64,000 nt of DNA, from positions 186,001 to 250,000 of the forward strand of contig JBEWZL010000209.1 of NCBI GenBank assembly GCA_045837725.1. Direction: 5' to 3'. Within the stretch, counting starts at the first letter, position 1. Every line of letters starts with the position of its first letter. Positions 1,345-42,100 of this stretch are shown here, one piece after another. Position numbers and translations under genes: made by a program. The notes beneath the pieces were generated by a model. The model was given only the letters and a program-made list of their open reading frames with translations, ran no database searches and had not been told where the DNA came from. The stretch is from Vermamoeba vermiformis. Lineage: Eukaryota.

Positions 1345-1740
1345 GGCTAGCGATTCCTTATGACTCTGCTTTGTTGTCTTCAGCCAAACAAACAAAATGA
1401 AATAATTCGCGCGAGAAATTCTGAGAATAAAGTACAAGACAAAGAACAAACCAAAATTGGTGACTGTTTCTACAAGAATCGCAATATTCAGAGCAACGGG
1501 ATCACTAGGGATGGATCAATGATTCGGCCAATAGAACCAAAAAAACAGCGAGAACCGGACCTAACTCTGCGTGAGCAGTGAACTACTTGTCTTTGTAGTA
1601 CAACCGTGTGGTACTCACACAAGCAGCTTGACACGTCACGTGCATTTTAAAATTGATAAAAGTCTTGACAAAATCAGATCGGGAACAAATTTTTATTTTA
1701 CTTGCTCGGTCATTCATGACAACATAGATAGTAGTCACGA

Positions 1741-2772
1741 ATGTCGAATCAATCAAGTCCCAATAGCAATGTATCACCAACACGGCTGTCGGTCTCAAAC
1801 ATTTGGAAAATGCACGGAGGATCAGTCCACTTATTGATACCCACCGCTGCTCCAATTCTGCTTCCAGAAAATACTAATACACAAACCGGTCGCAATAATG
1901 TAAATAATAATAATACGATTTCAAACAATTTTGTCAATAATTCTGTAAATACTCCAAATCAAATACCACAAGTTGTAAATAAGAATTCCAGCGGGAGTAT
2001 AAATATCAATGTAAATAATAGAATAACCGAAGCAAATAATGCACGCAGTAATACGACAACAGTTAATAATTCTTCGGCGGATTCAACATCGATCAAAAAA
2101 CCACCCAACGCTTTTATGCTCTATAGTAATGACATGCGTGCCAAACTGAAGACCGAATTACCTGATGCTAAGCAAGGAGAGCTCGTCAAAATAATTGGTG
2201 CTCGCTGGAAGGCATGTCATCCAGATGAAAAAGCAAAGTACGCGCAAAAGGCCGCGGAGCTGCTAGCAGAATGGAAGACAAAACATCCTGGCTGGGAAGA
2301 TGCACTCAGACAGAAGCGCCAAGAGAGTGCCGCCAAATCGAAGAAACGACGTGCCGAAGCCATGAGCTCGGATCTGGTCTTGAGTGACAGCAGCAATCAC
2401 AGTGTAGCAGAGACTGCAGTGCAAGAACCCGCGCATAAGAAGAGGAAGGTGGACAGCACTCGCAGTGCGAATACGACCAAGAACAGCTTGACTACAGCGA
2501 GCTTGAAGGACTCACTCATGGCTGCAAATAGCATACTCAACAACATCTCGCTGTTTTTAACGAGTCGCAATCAAAGCATACCAATCGCGCGACCTAGCTT
2601 TGATGAAGAGGACAGTCAGTCACAGGACAGCTGTCAAGTAGATGCTTCGCGCAAGAGCTCATTGTACTCTAACCCGATCACACCCTGCTTTGATGAAGAT
2701 CAGACCAGTGACAGTAGCAATGAAGTGCTCAATGACAACAGTGCGCAGTATGTGGATACGCGGGCTGATTAG
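1741..2772 (+). CDS. HMG-box DNA-binding protein, intronless, with Asn/Ser-rich flanks
   Basis: 343-aa ORF containing IKKPPNAFMLYSNDMRAKLK...ELVKIIGARWK...EKAKYAQKA...HPGW, a single SOX/MATA-type HMG box. Confidence 0.9.
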   Translation: MSNQSSPNSNVSPTRLSVSNIWKMHGGSVHLLIPTAAPILLPENTNTQTGRNNVNNNNTISNNFVNNSVNTPNQIPQVVNKNSSGSININVNNRITEANNARSNTTTVNNSSADSTSIKKPPNAFMLYSNDMRAKLKTELPDAKQGELVKIIGARWKACHPDEKAKYAQKAAELLAEWKTKHPGWEDALRQKRQESAAKSKKRRAEAMSSDLVLSDSSNHSVAETAVQEPAHKKRKVDSTRSANTTKNSLTTASLKDSLMAANSILNNISLFLTSRNQSIPIARPSFDEEDSQSQDSCQVDASRKSSLYSNPITPCFDEDQTSDSSNEVLNDNSAQYVDTRAD

Positions 2773-3130: not shown

Positions 3131-6324
<3,194 letters not shown>

Positions 6325-35722: not shown

Positions 35723-36665
35723 TTACTGGAAGTACTTGGCGTAATTGGGATTGGCAAGCATTTGACGAATCACGTCTTGCGTCTCTTTCATACCCTTGTT
35801 CAACATTTCCTCGCGCAACTATGTAAACAAGTTAATATATATTCGATAGTAGAGGGCAAGCATATTATCGAGTATAATGATTAGCCACAAATAATAATTA
35901 GAGTGTTACCTTTAACTTCTTAATTTCAGCTTCGCACGCGCTAATTTGACCGCTCAATTCAGCCTTCAAATCTTTCAAAGGGGTTTGTAAAAACCTAAAA
36001 ATATGTATCAGTATCGGCTATAATATAGTACAACCATTAATAGCAAAAAAGTAAGTCATCAAAACTGTTGGATTAAAAGCAGAGATCCGATCTACATCAA
36101 TTATGTAAAGCAAACGGGATCATATGTTATCTTGCTATTTTTAGTATCGATCGTGCGATATTGTTGATACATCGATGTATCATCGGACTCGAGTCCGAGG
36201 TTGAATCATATCAAATTATACGTGTAATTCTGGTATTACTTACATTCGACCTAAAAAAATCAATATTAGCAAAAAAAATTAGTATAAAATATTTATAACG
36301 CATACCAACTGGTTTATATGATTTAACATTCTCTGGAAATTCGTTGAGGTCTTTTTGTGTTTGAAGTCCTTTTGATCGTTCTCTTTCGTTCAAATTTGTT
36401 GTGGCTTTTACTGAATTTAATTGTCTTGTAATATCAAAAAATTTATTTTGAATCTCAATCGCTCCCTACAATAATAAAACAATTATTAGTCAAATCCAAA
36501 TAAAATATTGCTAATATTTAATGCAACATATTCTCATTAGTGTAGTTAACGTTTTACTCAATAGTATTAGTATAGTAGTGTTAATAAAGAGATTACAATT
36601 TCACACAAAATATTATTTGGGATCGAGTTTGATCGCCTCCGTACCTTCTTATAATCGTCGGCCAT
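35723..36665 (-). CDS. PFDN1: Prefoldin beta-type subunit (subunit 1-like), multi-exon including a 7-nt microexon
   Basis: Coiled coil - KSYKPVGRMFLQTP - coiled coil. The GRM codons are supplied by microexon 36244-36250. Confidence 0.8.
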
Positions 36666-36876
36666 TCTTTATTATACAGTTATTGTAATATCAGGTGTCT
36701 TCTTCCACAAATTTGGTGCACAAAATGATTGCACGGTCAGCGTCAGCCAAGAACTTTCCAAGCGACCACAGATCAACACAAAACCAACTCACGAGCAAAG
36801 ATGATTTGTCTTCTTTGACGGCGAGAATACCACCACCAATCATATTTATTTGTTGATGGAAACATACTCTGAGAAA

Positions 36877-38940
36877 ATGAAAAGAAAGCGAGAAGAAGCG
36901 AATGCGAATAGAAAGCAACAGCATCCTGTTAAGAAGTCAAAATTATTGCCTGAATCTGTCGATAAAACGGTTATTATATTACTAGGTATGTCATGATGGC
37001 TTAGTAGCTAAACCAATTATTTTTCAATATTAAATATCTGATCTCGATATTATTTTAGGGCCACCAGCAATTGGTAAAGGAACCCAAGCAGCACTATTAT
37101 CTAAACAATATTCGCTTCATCACATTTCAATGGGGGAATTATTGCGCGCAGCTAGTGAAGAAGAAGGAGAACGAGGACAATACATCCGCGAACACTGGAC
37201 TGTAAGTTGACGTTATTTTAATAATTTACTAGAATTTATTTTAGTTTATCTACGTGCAAAGGATACTAACATATCGAATTTAATTAGCTAAAAGATCTAA
37301 ACGAGATTGCGTTTCAACTGCTGCAGACTGAGATCCAAAATCATTTGACAGACGATTCAGTGAAGGGATTGATTATTGACGGCACTCCAAAGACTATTGA
37401 AGGAGTGTTTCAGCTCAATACAGTACTCACCGACTTCGGTCTAAAAGTAAATTGCGTGTTTTTAATGGAAATAGCTGATCTGGACGTATTATCGAATAGA
37501 TTGAAGCAGCGCGTTGAAGACAGCAAAGAAAAGCAACGAAATGACGATAAAGAAGGTGTTTTGGACGTTCGACTTGCAAATTTCTTCAAGCAGATAGAGC
37601 TCGTGCAACAATACTACGAGAAACTAGGTCTATTATTCAAAATCAATGCGGCGCATGAAAAACAAGTCGTATTCGAGGCAATTAGCAGTATCATGGATAA
37701 TTTGCCACAAAAGATCAATATCAATCAAACCAAAGTTGCGCACGAGAATGACATTGCAATGAAGTCCATTCAGAGACAGTTGAAGAGCAATCAACTCAAT
37801 ACCGATTTAATCGGCGAGATTGTTCAAGTAAGTTAGATGAATAATATCTAATTTGGGAGCGGTGTACTGACATCTTTATTCAGGACGCGGATCAATGGTC
37901 TCACATGCTGCAGCAATTGCTGAAGTGCTGTCGCGCTAAGATTTGGACTTTTCCTGGCAAAATTCCAGTGAATATGACGAAGCAGTCCATGTGTCAAATG
38001 AAAAGCGAGGATTGGCTCGTGACATCCAAGGCAAACGGTAAGTCCCGCTTTAAATCTTTTTGTATATAGGAGCATAATTATTAATAGTATATTAATAGGC
38101 ACGCGCTATTTACTGTTTATTTATCAGCAAAAAGCGTACTTCATCAATCGCAAGCTCGACTTTTTCCATGCCCCACAAGTCAACGTGTCATCTCACCAGC
38201 TCTATTCAATAATCGATGGTGAGATGGTGATTGAAGCTGCAGACGAGAGTGACAGTGATAAATCATCGTCGTCTTTGCGGTTCCTCGTTCACGACGCGCT
38301 CTACTTGGACGGCAAGTACGTCGGAGGCTTGACATTGGTCGATCGAATGCAACGTGTCAAAACAACTGTCAACAAGATCTCAAACGACAAAGGACACGAG
38401 TACCCGGCTATATTCGTGAGCACCAAGAAATATCATCCGATCTACCAGCTGAAGCACGTGATCAATGGAGTTATTCCGCAAGAGCGGATCAAAAATGATG
38501 GACTGATCTTCGCTTACAAGTATGGCAAATACAAGCTCGGCAAGGATGAATCTACGCTCAAATGGAAGCCACTCGAGCAGTGCACGGCTGACTATGTGGC
38601 TAAAAATAGAACAGTACTGCCGGACCAGGAAGGTGGCAAAAAGATCCGGTTTGAATTGTTTATTCAAAAGGGCCCGCAACTCATGCAAAGCGACGAACAT
38701 ATTATAATGGACGAGAAGCACGAGCTGTTTGATCAGCTGCAAGACGACATGATCGTGGAGTGCCAGTTGGTGGCAGATTTGCCTGACCAAGCATTTTCCT
38801 GCGTTCCGCTCAAAATCAGAACGGATAAATCGCATCCTAACGCGGACTGGGTACTCTCTAGCCTTAAGAAAACTGTCTTGGGGTGGAAAGAGGTTGAAAT
38901 AAACGCCATCTACGAACATTTTGAATTGAGCGCAGAATAG
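36877..38940 (+). CDS. Adenylate-kinase-like P-loop kinase fused to an mRNA guanylyltransferase (Ce1-like architecture), 595 aa
   Basis: Exons 36877-36985, 37059-37201, 37288-37827, 37884-38037 and 38099-38940 (1788 nt in frame). Kinase: [31 protein letters not shown]. GTase: FPGKIPV, motif I SKANGTRY, III IIDGEMV, IIIa FLVHDAL, IV DGLIF, V LKWKP, OB-fold IVEC and [10 protein letters not shown]. Confidence 0.9.
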
Positions 38941-39120
38941 GCTTAAAGTCCTCTTTATTGACGTGTAAATATGTAAATAAATGTTTGATATCGGAAAAAA
39001 GCAAGTTCTAAGGAGTAGTAAGTTGATTTTTCGTGTTTATGTTACAGGACGATACACCACAAGATCTAACAGTCATATGAAATAGTATTGTAGAGACATT
39101 ATTGTATATACGTTTGAATC

Positions 39121-42100
39121 ATGGAGCTCGAAAGTACTGGTATGTAGAAGCTTTTTTGCTTGATCCGATCAAAGATCCTTTGTATCGCTTCAAAAATTGT
39201 CGAATAATTTCCTAGGCATAGCAAAGCGTTAATTGTAAACATGTTTATCGAATGCTTATGGGAGATGGCAATTATGATCGCTCCTATAATTACGCAAGTT
39301 ACTAATTCTTGTTCGTTGGATGCACTAGCCGGAGTGAAGGAACTGCGGTCGATGTGGGAGTTCGCCAGCATATATAGCTTTTTCAACGAATTTAGAGACA
39401 CTTTGGAGCTCACTGGCTTTTCGATCGAGGTACCAATACTGAAGCACCACTTTTATACCTTAGCACAAACTATTCATCGATTTCAAGAATATATATTTAT
39501 TTAAATTATTAAAATTCATATCAATCATTTGCTCCGGTCTGATTTTGATTCTTTGACGCAACTTACGTTCGTCGATCTGATCGAAGATCTTTCGTACAGG
39601 ATTTGGAACAGGCTATTCAAGTTAATCCTAAAGACAGTCCTCTTATGCAAGATATTTGGGTCAAGCTTTTGTTGCTTATCAGTCGCAAGAAAGCGTCTTT
39701 GATCAAGTATGTTTCTATACAGATCCCGTGACCTGCCTATAATTTGCATGATAGTACTAATACTATATATAGTGCTGACACGTGGGAGGCCACACTCAGA
39801 ACAGCAATCAATCAACATCAAAGCGCGTACTGGCTCACAAACCCGCTGAAGATTTGCGAGTACAAGCGACTGCCGCTACGCAAGCGCGTGTTTATATTGA
39901 AATCAGTCGTTGACTGGGTGCTTGAAGACAGCGAGTTGTTGCAGCGATACATTGACCGACAGAAGACCGATAAGATGGTACGTCATTTAAGTGTCAAACA
40001 GCTACGGTGACTCGGGTCTAATTGTTTCTTGACAGCGGTACACACCTCTTGGTACTGATGCCAATGGCAGTGTTTATTGGTACTTGAATGGTACGTGAAG
40101 GATATGAACTTTAAATAGGCCAATTAACTCACTTACGGACAGATTATCGATTGTACAAGGAGACAAAAGTGAGTGACGAAGAGGCACAAAAGAGGCGCGA
40201 AGAACGACGCATGAAAGACAAGCAAGACCGCGATGTCATGAAACGTGCGGCAGAGGACAAGAAGAGGCGTGAAGAAGAAAAGCGAATGGCCAATATCAAA
40301 GCCAGACCTCGCGAGTTTTACGTGCCAATTGTCGAGGAAGTGAAGACTGAAGAGAAGAAAGAGAATATTGAACATAATAACACTAATGAGAATAATGCTA
40401 ATCAAACGACTGAAAACCCAACTAATAATACTAATGGCGTTCATGATGGTGAAACCAAAAATGAAAATAATACAAATCAAGAGGACAAAATGGACGTTGA
40501 TAAACCTGTTGGCGAAGCAGCATCAGAGATTAAAGACGAGAAAGAGAGCGATAACAACGATAAAGACGAAGACAAGGGCGAAGAAAAGTCAAAGCAAAAT
40601 AACAACGATGACGACGTGGATGTTGGCATGACGTACGAGGACGAACAAATCGTTGAAGAATCTGATGAAATGAAAGAAGAAGACTTGCACACGTGGGAAC
40701 TCGTTTGCAGAAATACAACGGAGTGGGGTCATTTCGTGGAACAATTCAAACAATCAAAACACGCTGGCGAGCGCGAGATTGCAGCATTTATCGCGAAGAA
40801 TATTGTCGATCATATTTCCACGAAAATGCAAGCTTATTTGCATGCTAAGAGGCGCACTCATTTGCTGCCCATTCAACACCGCAAGAAATCCACTCGCTTG
40901 CAAATGAAAGAAATCCAAAAGATCGAACAAGTAATATTACGTTATGCTAGTATATCGAGTACTAATAGGTTCATTTATAGCGCGTGACTCGTAGTGGCGG
41001 TCGAAGGAAAGAAAAAGATGTCAAAGTGTCACGTGAAGATCGTCTCGAGGCACGAAGACAGCGTCGCGATGTGACTCTGGCCAAAGCACTCATGTCACCA
41101 GAGGAGCAGAGCGAGACTAGTGCCCCTGTTGTTGACGAGAACGGCAATCCTATTGAACAGCCTCAAGAGCAAGCTGAGCCTGTAGTGTAAGTTAATTAGT
41201 AGCTCAAGTGTGACACGTGTCAAACACTAACTTTGGTCATTGCCTGCAGTAAACCTCCCCGACCAAAGGCACCGCCACGACCTAAGGGGCCGCGCAAGAC
41301 ATTAGCAGAAGAATTGCTGGAACTCGAGCAAGAGGAGGGACCGCTCTCAGATGATGACGAGAGTGAGGACGACGATGACTTTGACGGCGGCGAGAAGCCC
41401 AAGCGACGAGCCAGCACTGGTGGTATGGAGGGAGGTCGAGGCCGTGGACCTCGCACTTCACTCTCACCTAATGCTGGTCGACCACGAGGACCGCGCCAAC
41501 ATGTACGAAACATCTCGAGACATGCACGGACTGACATTTCCTTTTATAGAAATCGAGTTTCGAAACAGAACTCGTGCCAACAATTGGCGCGACATTTGTT
41601 TCATCGCGCGGACGGCAAGTCAAACAACGCATGTGGAACGATCAAGACGGCGAGGAAGATTTCGAAGAAAGAATTTCAGCGGCACCAGCACGGCCCAAGC
41701 CTGTCAAACAAAATCATCCACGTGTCAATCCTGATCCGACGCTCAATCTCAAATTAAAGCTCTCTTTCATTAAAGAAACATTGGGCGAAGAAGGATTTGC
41801 CAAAGGTAACCATTCAGAGTGAAATTTCCTTTTATGGCAAATGTTAATTTAGTATTAGCCATGACTCCTAAAGCACGTGTTGGCCGACCACCAAAATCAG
41901 CCGCGATAACGCCTAAAAAGGAAAAACAACAGGAGGATTTTGTGCCGCCGAGCGATGAAGAGGAGTACGACGAGGACGAGGAAGAAGAGGACTATGAAGA
42001 CGAAGATGACGAGGACTTTGATGTGGGTAGTTCCAAGCGACGAAAGAGCGGTGGATCTGCTGGCAAAAATTCACGCCGAGGCTCAGCAGTGCACAACACG

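What the first reader, a model, noticed from the sequence alone, without database searches (positions are those of the whole stretch)
36877..38940. Adenylate-kinase-like kinase fused to an mRNA guanylyltransferase: candidate RNA re-capping enzyme outside trypanosomes
Seen: one five-exon, 595-aa frame joins an NMP-kinase fold ([24 protein letters not shown], short LID RNDD) to a complete capping-enzyme NTase plus OB domain (motifs I, III, IIIa, IV, V, VI). There is no RNA triphosphatase or methyltransferase domain. Established: this order is that of kinetoplastid Ce1 (TbCe1), whose kinase converts 5'-monophosphate RNA to diphosphate for capping, i.e. re-capping of decapped RNA. Inference: this intron-rich, non-kinetoplastid genome encodes a self-contained pRNA to ppRNA to GpppRNA re-capping or repair enzyme, either as a relative of Ce1 or a convergent fusion. 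The kinase lacks the usual G-x-L-V-P NMP-binding segment and has DGTPK for DGFPR, which fits a changed phosphate acceptor.
Basis: partly seen in the sequence, partly recalled or inferred. Interest (0 to 1): 0.92.

Follow-up and report, generated by a model that had tools for sequence, protein, structure and literature searches.

The report
Kinase fused to mRNA capping enzyme
An intron-rich, non-trypanosome eukaryote makes one spliced protein that joins an adenylate-kinase-like domain to an mRNA cap-adding domain, the layout of the trypanosome enzyme that re-caps decapped mRNAs, and uncharacterised relatives of this fusion turn out to be common in sequence databases.

Summary
A five-exon gene, 36856/36877-38940 (+), encodes a 602- or 595-aa protein. 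Pfam finds ADK, mRNA_cap_enzyme and a weak mRNA_cap_C match. Contigs of run X4 lack introns 2-4, and one contig joins the kinase exon to the guanylyltransferase (GTase) exons. Orthologues of 596 aa on 1.9-kb contigs match all four junctions.

Two corrections apply. Orthologues start 21 nt upstream, and motif I reads KANG, not KxDG.

This fusion has relatives. The window's kinase region matches 11 of 153 stored proteins, including a Cavostelium transcript. The fused kinases separate from 48 free adenylate kinases. They carry a remodelled acceptor site but keep the ATP-site residues. One subgroup resembles a Euglenozoa cluster (a lead).

Best reading (0.6): a TbCe1-like bifunctional enzyme that converts pRNA to ppRNA to GpppRNA. 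No activity was tested.

I could not check for a separate canonical capping enzyme, because no genome is held. A 94%-identical relative carries a frameshift in the GTase half, which hints that the gene is dispensable.

Class: new member of a known kind. Interest: moderate to high.

The parts
36856..36985 (+). Exon 1. It encodes a basic, predicted-disordered N-terminal tail (MKRKRE...KKSK).
   Evidence: Orthologues P0285, P0289 and P0290 start [13 protein letters not shown]. RNA reads of a relative cover 36774-36947. The model has pLDDT below 50 for residues 15-31.
36986..37058 (+). Intron 1, 73 nt, GT..AG.
   Evidence: The junction matches the orthologue proteins. Reads did not bridge it.
37059..37201 (+). 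Exon 2. It holds the P-loop [10 protein letters not shown] (K50 in the 602-aa numbering), HISMGELLR, and the start of the remodelled acceptor segment.
   Evidence: Pfam ADK 2e-10.
37202..37287 (+). Intron 2, 86 nt, GT..AG.
   Evidence: An X4 contig joins 37201 to 37288.
37288..37827 (+). Exon 3. It holds the rest of the kinase (DGTPK, short LID R...QRNDD...VRL) up to about 37644, then a helical linker.
   Evidence: Pfam ADK 3.6e-10. See the alignment. The linker has low pLDDT at model residues 232-259.
37828..37883 (+). Intron 3, 56 nt, GT..AG.
   Evidence: An X4 contig of 337 nt joins 37827 to 37884, with 108 nt on the exon-3 side.
37884..38037 (+). Exon 4. It holds the N-terminal part of the NTase domain and motif I, K-A-N-G. 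The Lys codon is 38028-38030, which is K320.
   Evidence: X4 shows no differing letter over 37884-38036. KANG is also present in P0285 and P0005.
38038..38098 (+). Intron 4, 61 nt, GT..AG.
   Evidence: The same X4 contig skips it.
38099..38940 (+). Exon 5. It holds NTase motifs III (IIDGEMV), IIIa, IV (NDGLIF) and V (LKWKP) up to about 38577. The OB domain with motif VI (RTDKSHPN) and the stop codon 38938-38940 follow.
   Evidence: Pfam mRNA_cap_enzyme 1.4e-22 and mRNA_cap_C 3.9e-4. S. pombe Pce1 (4pz6) scores 6e-14.

Best explanation
The gene encodes a bifunctional RNA 5'-end enzyme of the TbCe1 kind.

Proposed mechanism (inferred, not tested):
1. The N-terminal adenylate-kinase-fold domain uses ATP to phosphorylate the 5'-monophosphate of an RNA, giving ppRNA. 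The RNA end takes the place of AMP as phosphate acceptor.
2. The C-terminal guanylyltransferase forms a Lys320-GMP adduct.
3. It transfers GMP to that ppRNA end, giving GpppRNA.
This would cap 5'-monophosphate ends, such as decapped or cleaved RNAs, that the ordinary triphosphatase-dependent pathway cannot use.

Shown here: one spliced, expressed and conserved frame; both folds; complete catalytic motif sets; and a family-wide remodelling of the acceptor site.

Inferred: the RNA-kinase activity, the coupling of the two steps, and the role alongside a separate canonical capping enzyme. The basic N-terminal tail (KRKR...KKSK) suggests a possible nuclear site of action, unlike cytoplasmic TbCe1.
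For: 1. One protein. Pfam on the full-length orthologue P0285 gives ADK at 39-201 (3.4e-26) and mRNA_cap_enzyme at 296-476 (2.4e-28).

2. Folds. The AlphaFold model of P0285 has pLDDT 79.6 and pTM 0.68. Its C-terminal half matches capping enzymes: human 3s24 at TMt 0.75-0.78 and PBCV-1 1ckm at 0.73. Its N-terminal part matches UMP/CMP and AK1-type kinases: 1uke at 0.89 and 1uky at 0.85.

3. Kinase ATP site (residue names recalled from AK1). The P-loop Lys, the GELLR Arg, both LID Arg, the DD pair and the following Arg are all present.

4. Kinase acceptor site.
- G-x-LV-P/S-D is replaced by [N/H/S]W in 9 of 13 fused kinases and in 0 of 9 free ones.
- The base-reading Gln is present in 8 of 9 free kinases and 1 of 13 fused ones.
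- DGFPR reads DGxPK in 5 of 13 fused kinases.

5. GTase. The invariant residues of motifs III, IV, V and VI are all present.

6. Common descent.
- All 13 fused kinase domains lie on one side of a branch against 48 free adenylate kinases (SH-aLRT 97).
- Holding the window's GTase with the kinase-fused side gives a tree 6.74 log-likelihood units better than the free search, p-AU 0.77.
- The subgroup around P0016 is nearest to an Atlas cluster named 'RNA guanylyltransferase', PF01331 in 96% and AAA_17 in 51% of members, commonest phylum Euglenozoa, score 0.95. This is a lead, not a test.

7. Constraint.
- Against the 94%-identical L023, there are 35 synonymous and 10 non-synonymous codon differences in the 438 codons before its deletion.
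- Against P0285, the kinase domain is the best conserved part at 87.3%, with NTase at 81.3% and OB at 76.9%.

8. Known function of the kind. TbCe1 converts pRNA to GpppRNA through ppRNA (PMC11417388, abstract and passages).
Against: - No activity was measured.
- No TbCe1 sequence could be obtained, so homology to TbCe1 rests on the Atlas lead for P0016 and on recalled architecture.
- Motif I is KANG. This is rare, seen in 5 of the 125 rows that cover motif I, of 126 aligned. Its effect on guanylylation is unknown.
- The Arg of DGFPR, which binds the acceptor phosphate in adenylate kinases (recalled), is Lys here.
- The mixture-model GTase tree placed the window's long branch (1.79) with small stand-alone GTases. 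Support was 84 and 92, not starred.
- The FastTree grouping with the fused clade has only 66 support.
- The fused kinases are long branches, so the 97 could partly reflect long-branch attraction.
- Free short-type adenylate kinases score nearly as well against the window kinase (best 68.9 bits) as the best fused one (75.5 bits).
- A basic N-terminal tail could equally fit an ordinary nuclear capping enzyme.
Confidence: 0.6

Rival explanations
1. It is the organism's ordinary, probably nuclear, capping guanylyltransferase working with a separate triphosphatase. The fused adenylate-kinase-like domain has another role, such as local nucleotide conversion or regulation, and is not an RNA kinase.
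For: - The GTase motifs are complete.
- The best solved relatives are nuclear enzymes: Pce1 at 6e-14 and Cgt1, Pce1 and human enzymes by fold.
- The basic KRKR...KKSK tail is conserved in P0285.
- The kinase is a true ADK-family member.
- No second GTase lies in the 64-kb window, although this says little.
Against: - The AMP-specifying elements are replaced across the whole fusion family. That is unexpected for a plain NMP kinase.
- L023, a 94%-identical relative, has a 19-bp deletion that frameshifts the gene before motif IV. Synonymous to non-synonymous codon differences go from 35/10 before it to 8/10 after it. This would be hard to survive if the gene were the sole capping enzyme, unless L023 is a second copy or an assembly fault.
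- The GTase is compatible with the kinase-fused clade, which is distinct from the canonical clades.
Confidence: 0.2
2. It caps or modifies some 5'-phosphorylated substrate other than decapped mRNA. Examples are cleavage products of RNA processing, non-coding RNAs or foreign RNA. This would be a repair or marking role and not mRNA cap homeostasis.
For: - The chemistry is the same as in the best explanation.
- The possible nuclear signal differs from cytoplasmic TbCe1 (PMC11417388 passages).
- TbCe1's strong preference for cap-4-derived methylated ends (abstract) cannot apply unchanged outside kinetoplastids.
Against: Nothing in the sequence identifies a substrate. No RNA-binding or targeting domain was found besides the OB fold.
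Confidence: 0.12
3. One half is catalytically dead. For example, the GTase could be crippled by KxNG, or the kinase by the Arg-to-Lys change. The protein would then act as a single-activity enzyme or a scaffold.
For: - KxNG occurs in only 5 of the 125 rows that cover motif I, of 126 aligned.
- DGxPK replaces DGxPR.
- A second Euglenozoa-like subgroup, P0147, has lost the P-loop entirely, so decay of one half does occur in this family.
Against: - All other catalytic residues of both halves are kept.
- Both halves are under purifying selection.
- KANG is kept in the 83%-identical orthologue.
- KxNG recurs in four other otherwise intact GTases.
- I recall, from no call, that yeast tRNA ligase uses a KANG motif I, so Asn at this position is compatible with covalent nucleotidyl transfer.
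Confidence: 0.07
4. Two neighbouring genes, a kinase and a capping enzyme, were wrongly joined by the reader.
For: None beyond the a priori possibility. Exon 3 ends in a roughly 90-residue linker of low model confidence.
Against: - One X4 contig runs from exon 3 through exon 4 into exon 5 with both introns removed.
- 596-aa orthologues sit on 1.9-kb contigs.
- 11 of 153 stored proteins from elsewhere carry both domains in one frame.
Confidence: 0.01

Closest known systems
TbCe1, the Trypanosoma brucei cytoplasmic mRNA recapping enzyme (RNA 5'-monophosphate kinase plus guanylyltransferase)
   Same: - It is a single polypeptide with a kinase part ahead of a GTase. TbCe1's GTase nucleophile is K288; here it is K320.
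- It has no triphosphatase or methyltransferase domain.
- P0016, a proxy from a Euglenozoa-like cluster, has ADK, mRNA_cap_enzyme and mRNA_cap_C by Pfam. It shares the NW acceptor-site signature and the short LID with the window protein.
   Different: - The host is an intron-rich non-kinetoplastid.
- Motif I is KANG, not KADG.
- DGTPK replaces DGYPR.
- There is a basic N-terminal tail.
- Within the family the window protein groups with the P0010/P0057 subgroup and not the Euglenozoa-like one (support 93).
- There is no cap 4 to guide substrate choice.
- No direct sequence comparison with TbCe1 itself was possible.
Stand-alone fungal or protist mRNA guanylyltransferases (S. pombe Pce1, C. albicans Cgt1, S. 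cerevisiae Ceg1) and PBCV-1 capping enzyme
   Same: The NTase and OB fold and motifs III-VI are shared.
   Different: - Those enzymes have no kinase domain and act on ppRNA made by a triphosphatase.
- Sequence identity is only about 20-23% over the structural alignments.
Short-type NMP kinases (AK1/AK5, UMP-CMP kinase)
   Same: The fold (TMt 0.85-0.89), the P-loop, the short LID with its arginines, and the Pfam ADK match are shared.
   Different: - The G-x-LVPD loop and the base-reading Gln are replaced.
- The Arg of DGFPR is Lys.
- The domain is fused to a GTase.
   Same: - Architecture and signature motifs are shared. The window kinase region matches P0010 at 6e-26.
- Kinase domains form one clade.
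   Different: - P0010, P0057, P0091, P0023 and P0141 carry a long LID insert (PF05191), which the window protein lacks.
- None of them has been studied. Sources name them 'adenylate kinase' or 'thymidylate kinase' at most.

Membership tests
TbCe1-type kinase-guanylyltransferase (recapping enzyme) | P-loop kinase domain and GTase (NTase plus OB) in one polypeptide, with the kinase N-terminal | tested here: met
TbCe1-type kinase-guanylyltransferase (recapping enzyme) | Sequence homology to TbCe1 itself in both domains | tested here: inconclusive
   No TbCe1 sequence was obtainable. As proxies, the P0016 group (Atlas lead to Euglenozoa) shares a kinase clade with the window protein (SH-aLRT 97). 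A GTase clade is not rejected (p-AU 0.77), but the free tree placed the window elsewhere.
TbCe1-type kinase-guanylyltransferase (recapping enzyme) | ATP-dependent phosphorylation of 5'-pRNA to ppRNA | not testable with these tools
   Only sequence proxies exist: the ATP site is intact and the acceptor site is remodelled.
TbCe1-type kinase-guanylyltransferase (recapping enzyme) | Cytoplasmic localisation and a role beside a separate nuclear capping enzyme | not testable with these tools
   No genome is held. The N-terminal KRKR...KKSK tail hints at nuclear import. The frameshifted relative L023 hints at dispensability.
mRNA guanylyltransferase, covalent nucleotidyltransferase superfamily (PF01331/PF03919) | Catalytic domain above Pfam's cut-off, with motifs III, IIIa, IV, V and VI | tested here: met
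   Exon 5 alone scores 80.9 bits against a cut-off of 29.6. P0285 scores 99.8 bits. The residues that are 99-100% conserved in 126 rows are all present.
mRNA guanylyltransferase, covalent nucleotidyltransferase superfamily (PF01331/PF03919) | Motif I K-x-D-G with the nucleophilic Lys | tested here: inconclusive
   Lys, Gly and the following Arg are present, but Asp is Asn (KANGTR). KxNG occurs in 5 of the 125 rows that cover motif I, of 126 aligned.
mRNA guanylyltransferase, covalent nucleotidyltransferase superfamily (PF01331/PF03919) | C-terminal OB domain (PF03919) | tested here: inconclusive
   It scores 21.6 bits and 20.9 bits, below the 26.5 cut-off. The fold model aligns over about 350 columns to whole capping enzymes that include the OB, and motif VI is present.
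Adenylate kinase / NMP kinase family (PF00406) | Domain above Pfam's cut-off, P-loop, LID arginines | tested here: met
   The two exons score 41.4 and 40.6 bits and P0285 scores 92.6 bits, against a cut-off of 26.8. Residues are shown.
Adenylate kinase / NMP kinase family (PF00406) | Canonical NMP-binding elements (G-x-LVPD loop, base-reading Gln, Arg of DGFPR) | tested here: not met
   All three are replaced in the window protein. It has the fold but not the acceptor site of an adenylate kinase.
Metazoan/plant-type capping enzyme (Cys-phosphatase triphosphatase fused to GTase) | N-terminal HCxxGxxR(S/T) phosphatase domain | tested here: not met
   No such Pfam hit was found. These enzymes form a separate clade (support 94).

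The most novel reading that the evidence does not exclude
TbCe1 may not be a kinetoplastid oddity. It may be one branch of an old, widely spread family of RNA 5'-monophosphate kinase/guanylyltransferase fusions. The family is present in amoeba-like and other eukaryotes, and perhaps in giant viruses, and is marked by the NW acceptor-site signature. The window's member would be a possibly nuclear recapping enzyme with a KxNG active site. If so, enzymatic recapping of monophosphate RNA ends is a general eukaryotic capability. The ADK-derived domain would then be a concrete model for the still unidentified RNA kinase of mammalian cytoplasmic recapping.
Probability: 0.45. Interest if true: 0.78.

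Novelty: new member of a known kind. Interest (0 to 1): 0.62.

Why it matters
Recapping of decapped mRNA has been shown enzymatically in one polypeptide only for T. brucei TbCe1. In mammals the RNA kinase of the cytoplasmic capping complex is still described as unidentified (PMC11417388 discussion). A Toxoplasma study reports finding no TbCe1 homologue there (PMC12215270 passage).

This gene is expressed and conserved, and it has many unstudied relatives outside kinetoplastids. That makes two questions directly testable with a recombinant protein: whether pRNA capping is widespread, and how an adenylate-kinase fold is retooled for an RNA end. The shared acceptor-site changes give specific residues to mutate.

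In four searches of the paper library I found no description of such fusions outside kinetoplastids. The 2015 PNAS paper and the 1998 MCB paper on Ce1 are not held, and they may say more.

Tried and rejected
- Whole genome. None is held, so the search for a separate capping enzyme, triphosphatase and cap methyltransferase could not be run. A six-frame scan of the 64-kb window found no second GTase.
- Protein search for longer relatives of exon 5. It scored nothing.
- Profile search with the fusion alignment A1. Plain adenylate kinases swamped it. It returned only P0010 and P0057 as fusions and no kinetoplastid protein.
- Viral contigs scan with A1. It used only the P-loop pattern. None of its 22 loci has a GTase within 3 kb (tblastn), so it neither confirms nor contradicts the earlier giant-virus note.
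- Taxon of the window. It was not identified. The Atlas search with the AlaRS fragment gave only bacterial and archaeal clusters. Rfam gave no hit. PDB was uninformative. Exact look-up of 10 ATG-to-stop ORFs found none in the collection. The nearest named relatives of the GTase are amoebozoan transcripts, Planopodium desertum P0008 and Cavostelium apophysatum P0023. That is only a hint.
- Runs with small shares of the stretch's words.
- RNA reads X21-X23, which carry the same species label. They are only 90-95% alike and lie only partly on the stretch. They show that a diverged orthologue is expressed, but they bridge none of the window's introns.
- Papers not held: PNAS 2015 and MCB 1998. The search for data on the motif I Asp was swamped by the surname Kang.
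- Earlier notes by place and by sequence gave nothing.
- Two-gene reading: rejected.
Full report
**Observation**

The region 36877-38940 (+) reads as five exons: 36877-36985, 37059-37201, 37288-37827, 37884-38037 and 38099-38940. The four introns are GT..AG and are 73, 86, 56 and 61 nt long. Together the exons give 1788 nt, or 595 codons plus a stop.

Pfam on the separate exons gives these matches:
- exon 2: ADK at 2e-10
- exon 3: ADK at 3.6e-10
- exon 5: mRNA_cap_enzyme at 1.4e-22
- exon 5: a sub-threshold mRNA_cap_C match (21.6 bits against a cut-off of 26.5)

No triphosphatase or methyltransferase family appears. The best solved relative of exon 5 is S. pombe Pce1 (4pz6, 6e-14). Exon 3 matches adenylate kinases (best 3.5e-8).

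**Is it one transcript?**

No genome is held for the window, but sequencing runs could be laid. Run X4 is near-identical to the window, and the tool only guesses that it is RNA. Its contigs show three things:
- One contig joins 37201 to 37288.
- One 337-nt contig runs 37720-37827, then 37884-38036, then 38098-38171. This goes from the kinase exon through exon 4 into exon 5, with both introns gone and GT..AG at the skipped ends.
- Intron 1 was not bridged.

Raw RNA reads X21-X23 carry the species label of the likely source. They are only 90-95% alike and lie only partly on the stretch. They show that a diverged orthologue is expressed over exon 1 and exon 5.

Independent support comes from the 90%-identity cluster of P0001. 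It holds three 596-aa proteins (P0285, P0289, P0290), which the source names 'adenylate kinase'. They sit on contigs of 1916-1963 nt. These are too short to hold a 1791-nt frame plus about 276 nt of introns, so they are presumably cDNA-derived. That last step is my inference.

These proteins run colinearly with the predicted protein through all four junctions. P0285 is 82.7% identical to it, 493 of 596 aligned. They begin [13 protein letters not shown], so the in-frame ATG at 36856 is the likelier start, giving 602 aa. The two-gene reading is refuted.

**Anatomy**

Residue numbers below follow the 602-aa protein.

- Residues 1-37 form a basic tail (KRKR...KKSK). It is predicted disordered, with pLDDT below 50 at residues 15-31 of the orthologue model.
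- Residues 38-210 form the kinase:
  - the P-loop G44-PPAIGK50-GT
  - HISMGELLR
  - the segment HWTLKDL, where adenylate kinases have G-x-LV-P/S-D
  - DGTPK, where they have DGFPR
  - a short LID, R...QRNDD...VRL
- Residues 211-295 form a helical linker of low model confidence.
- The NTase domain has motif I as K320-A-N-G-T-R, then motifs III (IIDGEMV), IIIa (FLVHDAL), IV (NDGLIF) and V (LKWKP).
- The OB domain has motif VI (RTDKSHPN).

In an alignment of 126 GTase domains, the residues that are 99-100% conserved in motifs III, IV, V and VI are all present. Motif I is unusual. KxNG occurs in 5 of the 125 rows that cover it: the window, P0008, P0085, P0076 and P0078. KANG is also present in the orthologue P0285 and in P0005.

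The AlphaFold model of P0285 was built from a 15-row alignment and has pLDDT 79.6 and pTM 0.68. Its matches in the PDB are:
- capping enzymes: Cgt1, Pce1, human 3s24 (TMt 0.75-0.78) and PBCV-1 (0.73)
- UMP/CMP and AK1-type kinases (TMt 0.85-0.89)

**Relatives**

An exhaustive search with exon 5 found 268 proteins at E up to 1e-3, of which the best 150 were listed.

I then searched the window's first 300 residues against the 153 proteins stored at that point. Eleven non-self proteins matched at E below 1e-3 in their N-terminal parts: P0010 (6e-26), P0057, P0091, P0015, P0023, P0016, P0036, P0141, P0130, P0151 and P0147.

A profile of the fused kinases matched 17 of 161 GTase-holding proteins, which is about 15 clusters at 50% identity. 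Eleven of these had been used to build the profile, so they match by construction.

The sources name few of them:
- P0023 is a Cavostelium apophysatum transcript (EukProt).
- Two JGI proteins are called 'adenylate kinase' and 'thymidylate kinase'.
- The kinase-less P0008 is a Planopodium desertum transcript. It also has KANGTR and is the best non-orthologous hit.

P0016 stands for a subgroup with a short LID. Its nearest Atlas cluster is 'RNA guanylyltransferase', with PF01331 in 96% and AAA_17 in 51% of members, and Euglenozoa as the commonest phylum (score 0.95). This is a lead that the subgroup is the Ce1 type of kinetoplastids. I could obtain no TbCe1 sequence to test it.

My one viral scan found only plain adenylate kinases: 22 loci, none with a GTase within 3 kb.

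**One origin or convergence?**

*Kinase domains.* In a mixture-model tree of 61 rows, all 13 fused kinases lie on one side of a branch against 48 free adenylate kinases (SH-aLRT 97). The window and P0285 group with P0010 and P0057 (support 93).

How the rows were chosen:
- 131 stored proteins had a kinase-profile domain.
- I used 12 fused proteins plus the window.
- I added the 20 best-scoring free kinases and 28 drawn at random.
- Five duplicates and the remaining free ones were left out.

Caveat: the fused rows are long branches.

*GTase domains.*
- FastTree on 126 rows puts the window in a 22-row group that holds 13 of the 15 fused rows, with weak support of 66. The 'fused' label needs 5 changes against a shuffled mean of 14.4.
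- The mixture-model tree on 53 rows instead puts the window's long branch (1.79) with small stand-alone GTases. Support was 84 and 92, not starred.
- The AU test found that the tree holding the window with the fused side is 6.74 log-likelihood units better than the free search had found, with p-AU 0.77.

The GTase data are therefore compatible with one fused clade, but they do not prove it.

*Shared derived characters.*
- [N/H/S]W replaces G-x-LVPD in 9 of 13 fused kinases and in 0 of 9 free ones.
- The base-reading Gln is present in 8 of 9 free kinases and in 1 of 13 fused ones.

Taken together, I favour a single old fusion.

**Constraint, and a broken relative**

L023 is a 4.3-kb metagenome contig that is 94% identical to the window over 36290-40527. 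It keeps all splice sites but has a 19-bp deletion in exon 5, just before motif IV. The deletion shifts the frame.

| Part of the gene | Codons | Synonymous differences | Non-synonymous differences |
|---|---|---|---|
| Before the deletion | 438 | 35 | 10 |
| After the deletion, in the window's frame | 150 | 8 | 10 |

The numbers after the deletion are small. This pattern fits strong purifying selection on the intact gene, followed by real decay of the GTase tail in that lineage. Such decay would be hard to reconcile with a sole capping enzyme. A second copy or an assembly fault cannot be excluded.

More distant relatives (P0001-P0004, 71-81% identical) keep the exon-5 frame open to the same stop. 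Against P0285, the kinase domain is the best conserved part at 87.3%.

**Mechanism**

The set of ATP-site residues I recall from AK1 is complete: the P-loop Lys, the Arg of GELLR, two LID Arg, the DD pair and the next Arg. The elements that read AMP are replaced. The GTase has every catalytic motif.

TbCe1 shows that such a pair can convert pRNA to ppRNA and then to GpppRNA (PMC11417388, abstract and passages). Its GTase Lys is K288.

I therefore propose the same two-step chemistry here, with confidence 0.6. Both activities and their coupling are inferred.

The main rivals are:
- an ordinary capping GTase whose kinase domain has some other role (0.2)
- capping of substrates other than decapped mRNA (0.12)
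- one dead half (0.07)

**Novelty**

The kind is known from TbCe1. This gene is a new member in a non-kinetoplastid, with its own features:
- KANG as motif I
- DGTPK in place of DGFPR
- a short LID inside a long-LID subgroup
- a basic N-terminal tail

Four library searches found no paper describing such fusions outside kinetoplastids. Only 8 papers hold 'TbCe1' at all. PMC5750579 notes that TbG5-IP is 'similar in structure' to TbCe1, which may correspond to the second Euglenozoa-like subgroup around P0147. The 2015 and 1998 primary papers are not held, and I did not ask for supplements. Either might mention homologues.

**Left open**
- the organism's identity (searches gave nothing)
- whether a canonical capping enzyme exists in the same genome
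- direct comparison with TbCe1
- all biochemistry

Noticed in passing
L023:1925-2747 (equivalent to window 38099-38940): A 94%-identical relative has a 19-bp deletion just before GTase motif IV, which shifts the frame. Substitutions after it look relaxed, at 8 synonymous to 10 non-synonymous, against 35 to 10 before it.
   Followed up: partly
L023:1-126: The first 126 nt of this contig repeat window 37764-37888 (end of exon 3, intron 3, start of exon 4) at 92% identity, ahead of the colinear match. This is either an assembly chimera or a local duplication.
   Followed up: no
window 36856-36876: An in-frame upstream ATG adds METYSEK. The orthologues P0285, P0289 and P0290 start there.
   Followed up: yes
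P0006 (1019 aa; sequence): This open frame is made of at least 11 tandem copies of a unit of about 78 residues. The core of the unit (CDLPDQVFFSTPIRLLTMKSHP) resembles the window protein's motif VI region ([22 protein letters not shown]). It looks like a satellite-like array derived from a fragment of this gene in some relative.
   Followed up: partly
P0008 (Planopodium desertum transcript): This is the best non-orthologous hit to exon 5 (4e-16), and it shares KANGTR. It has no kinase domain. A Pro-rich N-terminus and a long Ser/Lys-rich tail flank the GTase. It may be a kinase-less offshoot of the fused clade.
   Followed up: partly
P0147, P0078 (Euglenozoa-like second subgroup): The fused layout is kept, but the P-loop has decayed (GPPNSPKKK in P0147) and Pfam gives no ADK hit. 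This group might correspond to TbG5-IP, which PMC5750579 calls similar in structure to TbCe1.
   Followed up: no
P0155 (1139 aa): This is a longer form of the P0130 fusion. A low-complexity N-terminal extension of about 585 residues, rich in Ala, Pro and Gln, precedes the kinase.
   Followed up: no
window 3131-4477 (-) and 1735-2772 (+): These are an alanyl-tRNA synthetase fragment (tRNA_SAD 3.9e-14) and an HMG-box protein (1.2e-20). Eight of the ten large open frames scanned had no Pfam family.
   Followed up: no
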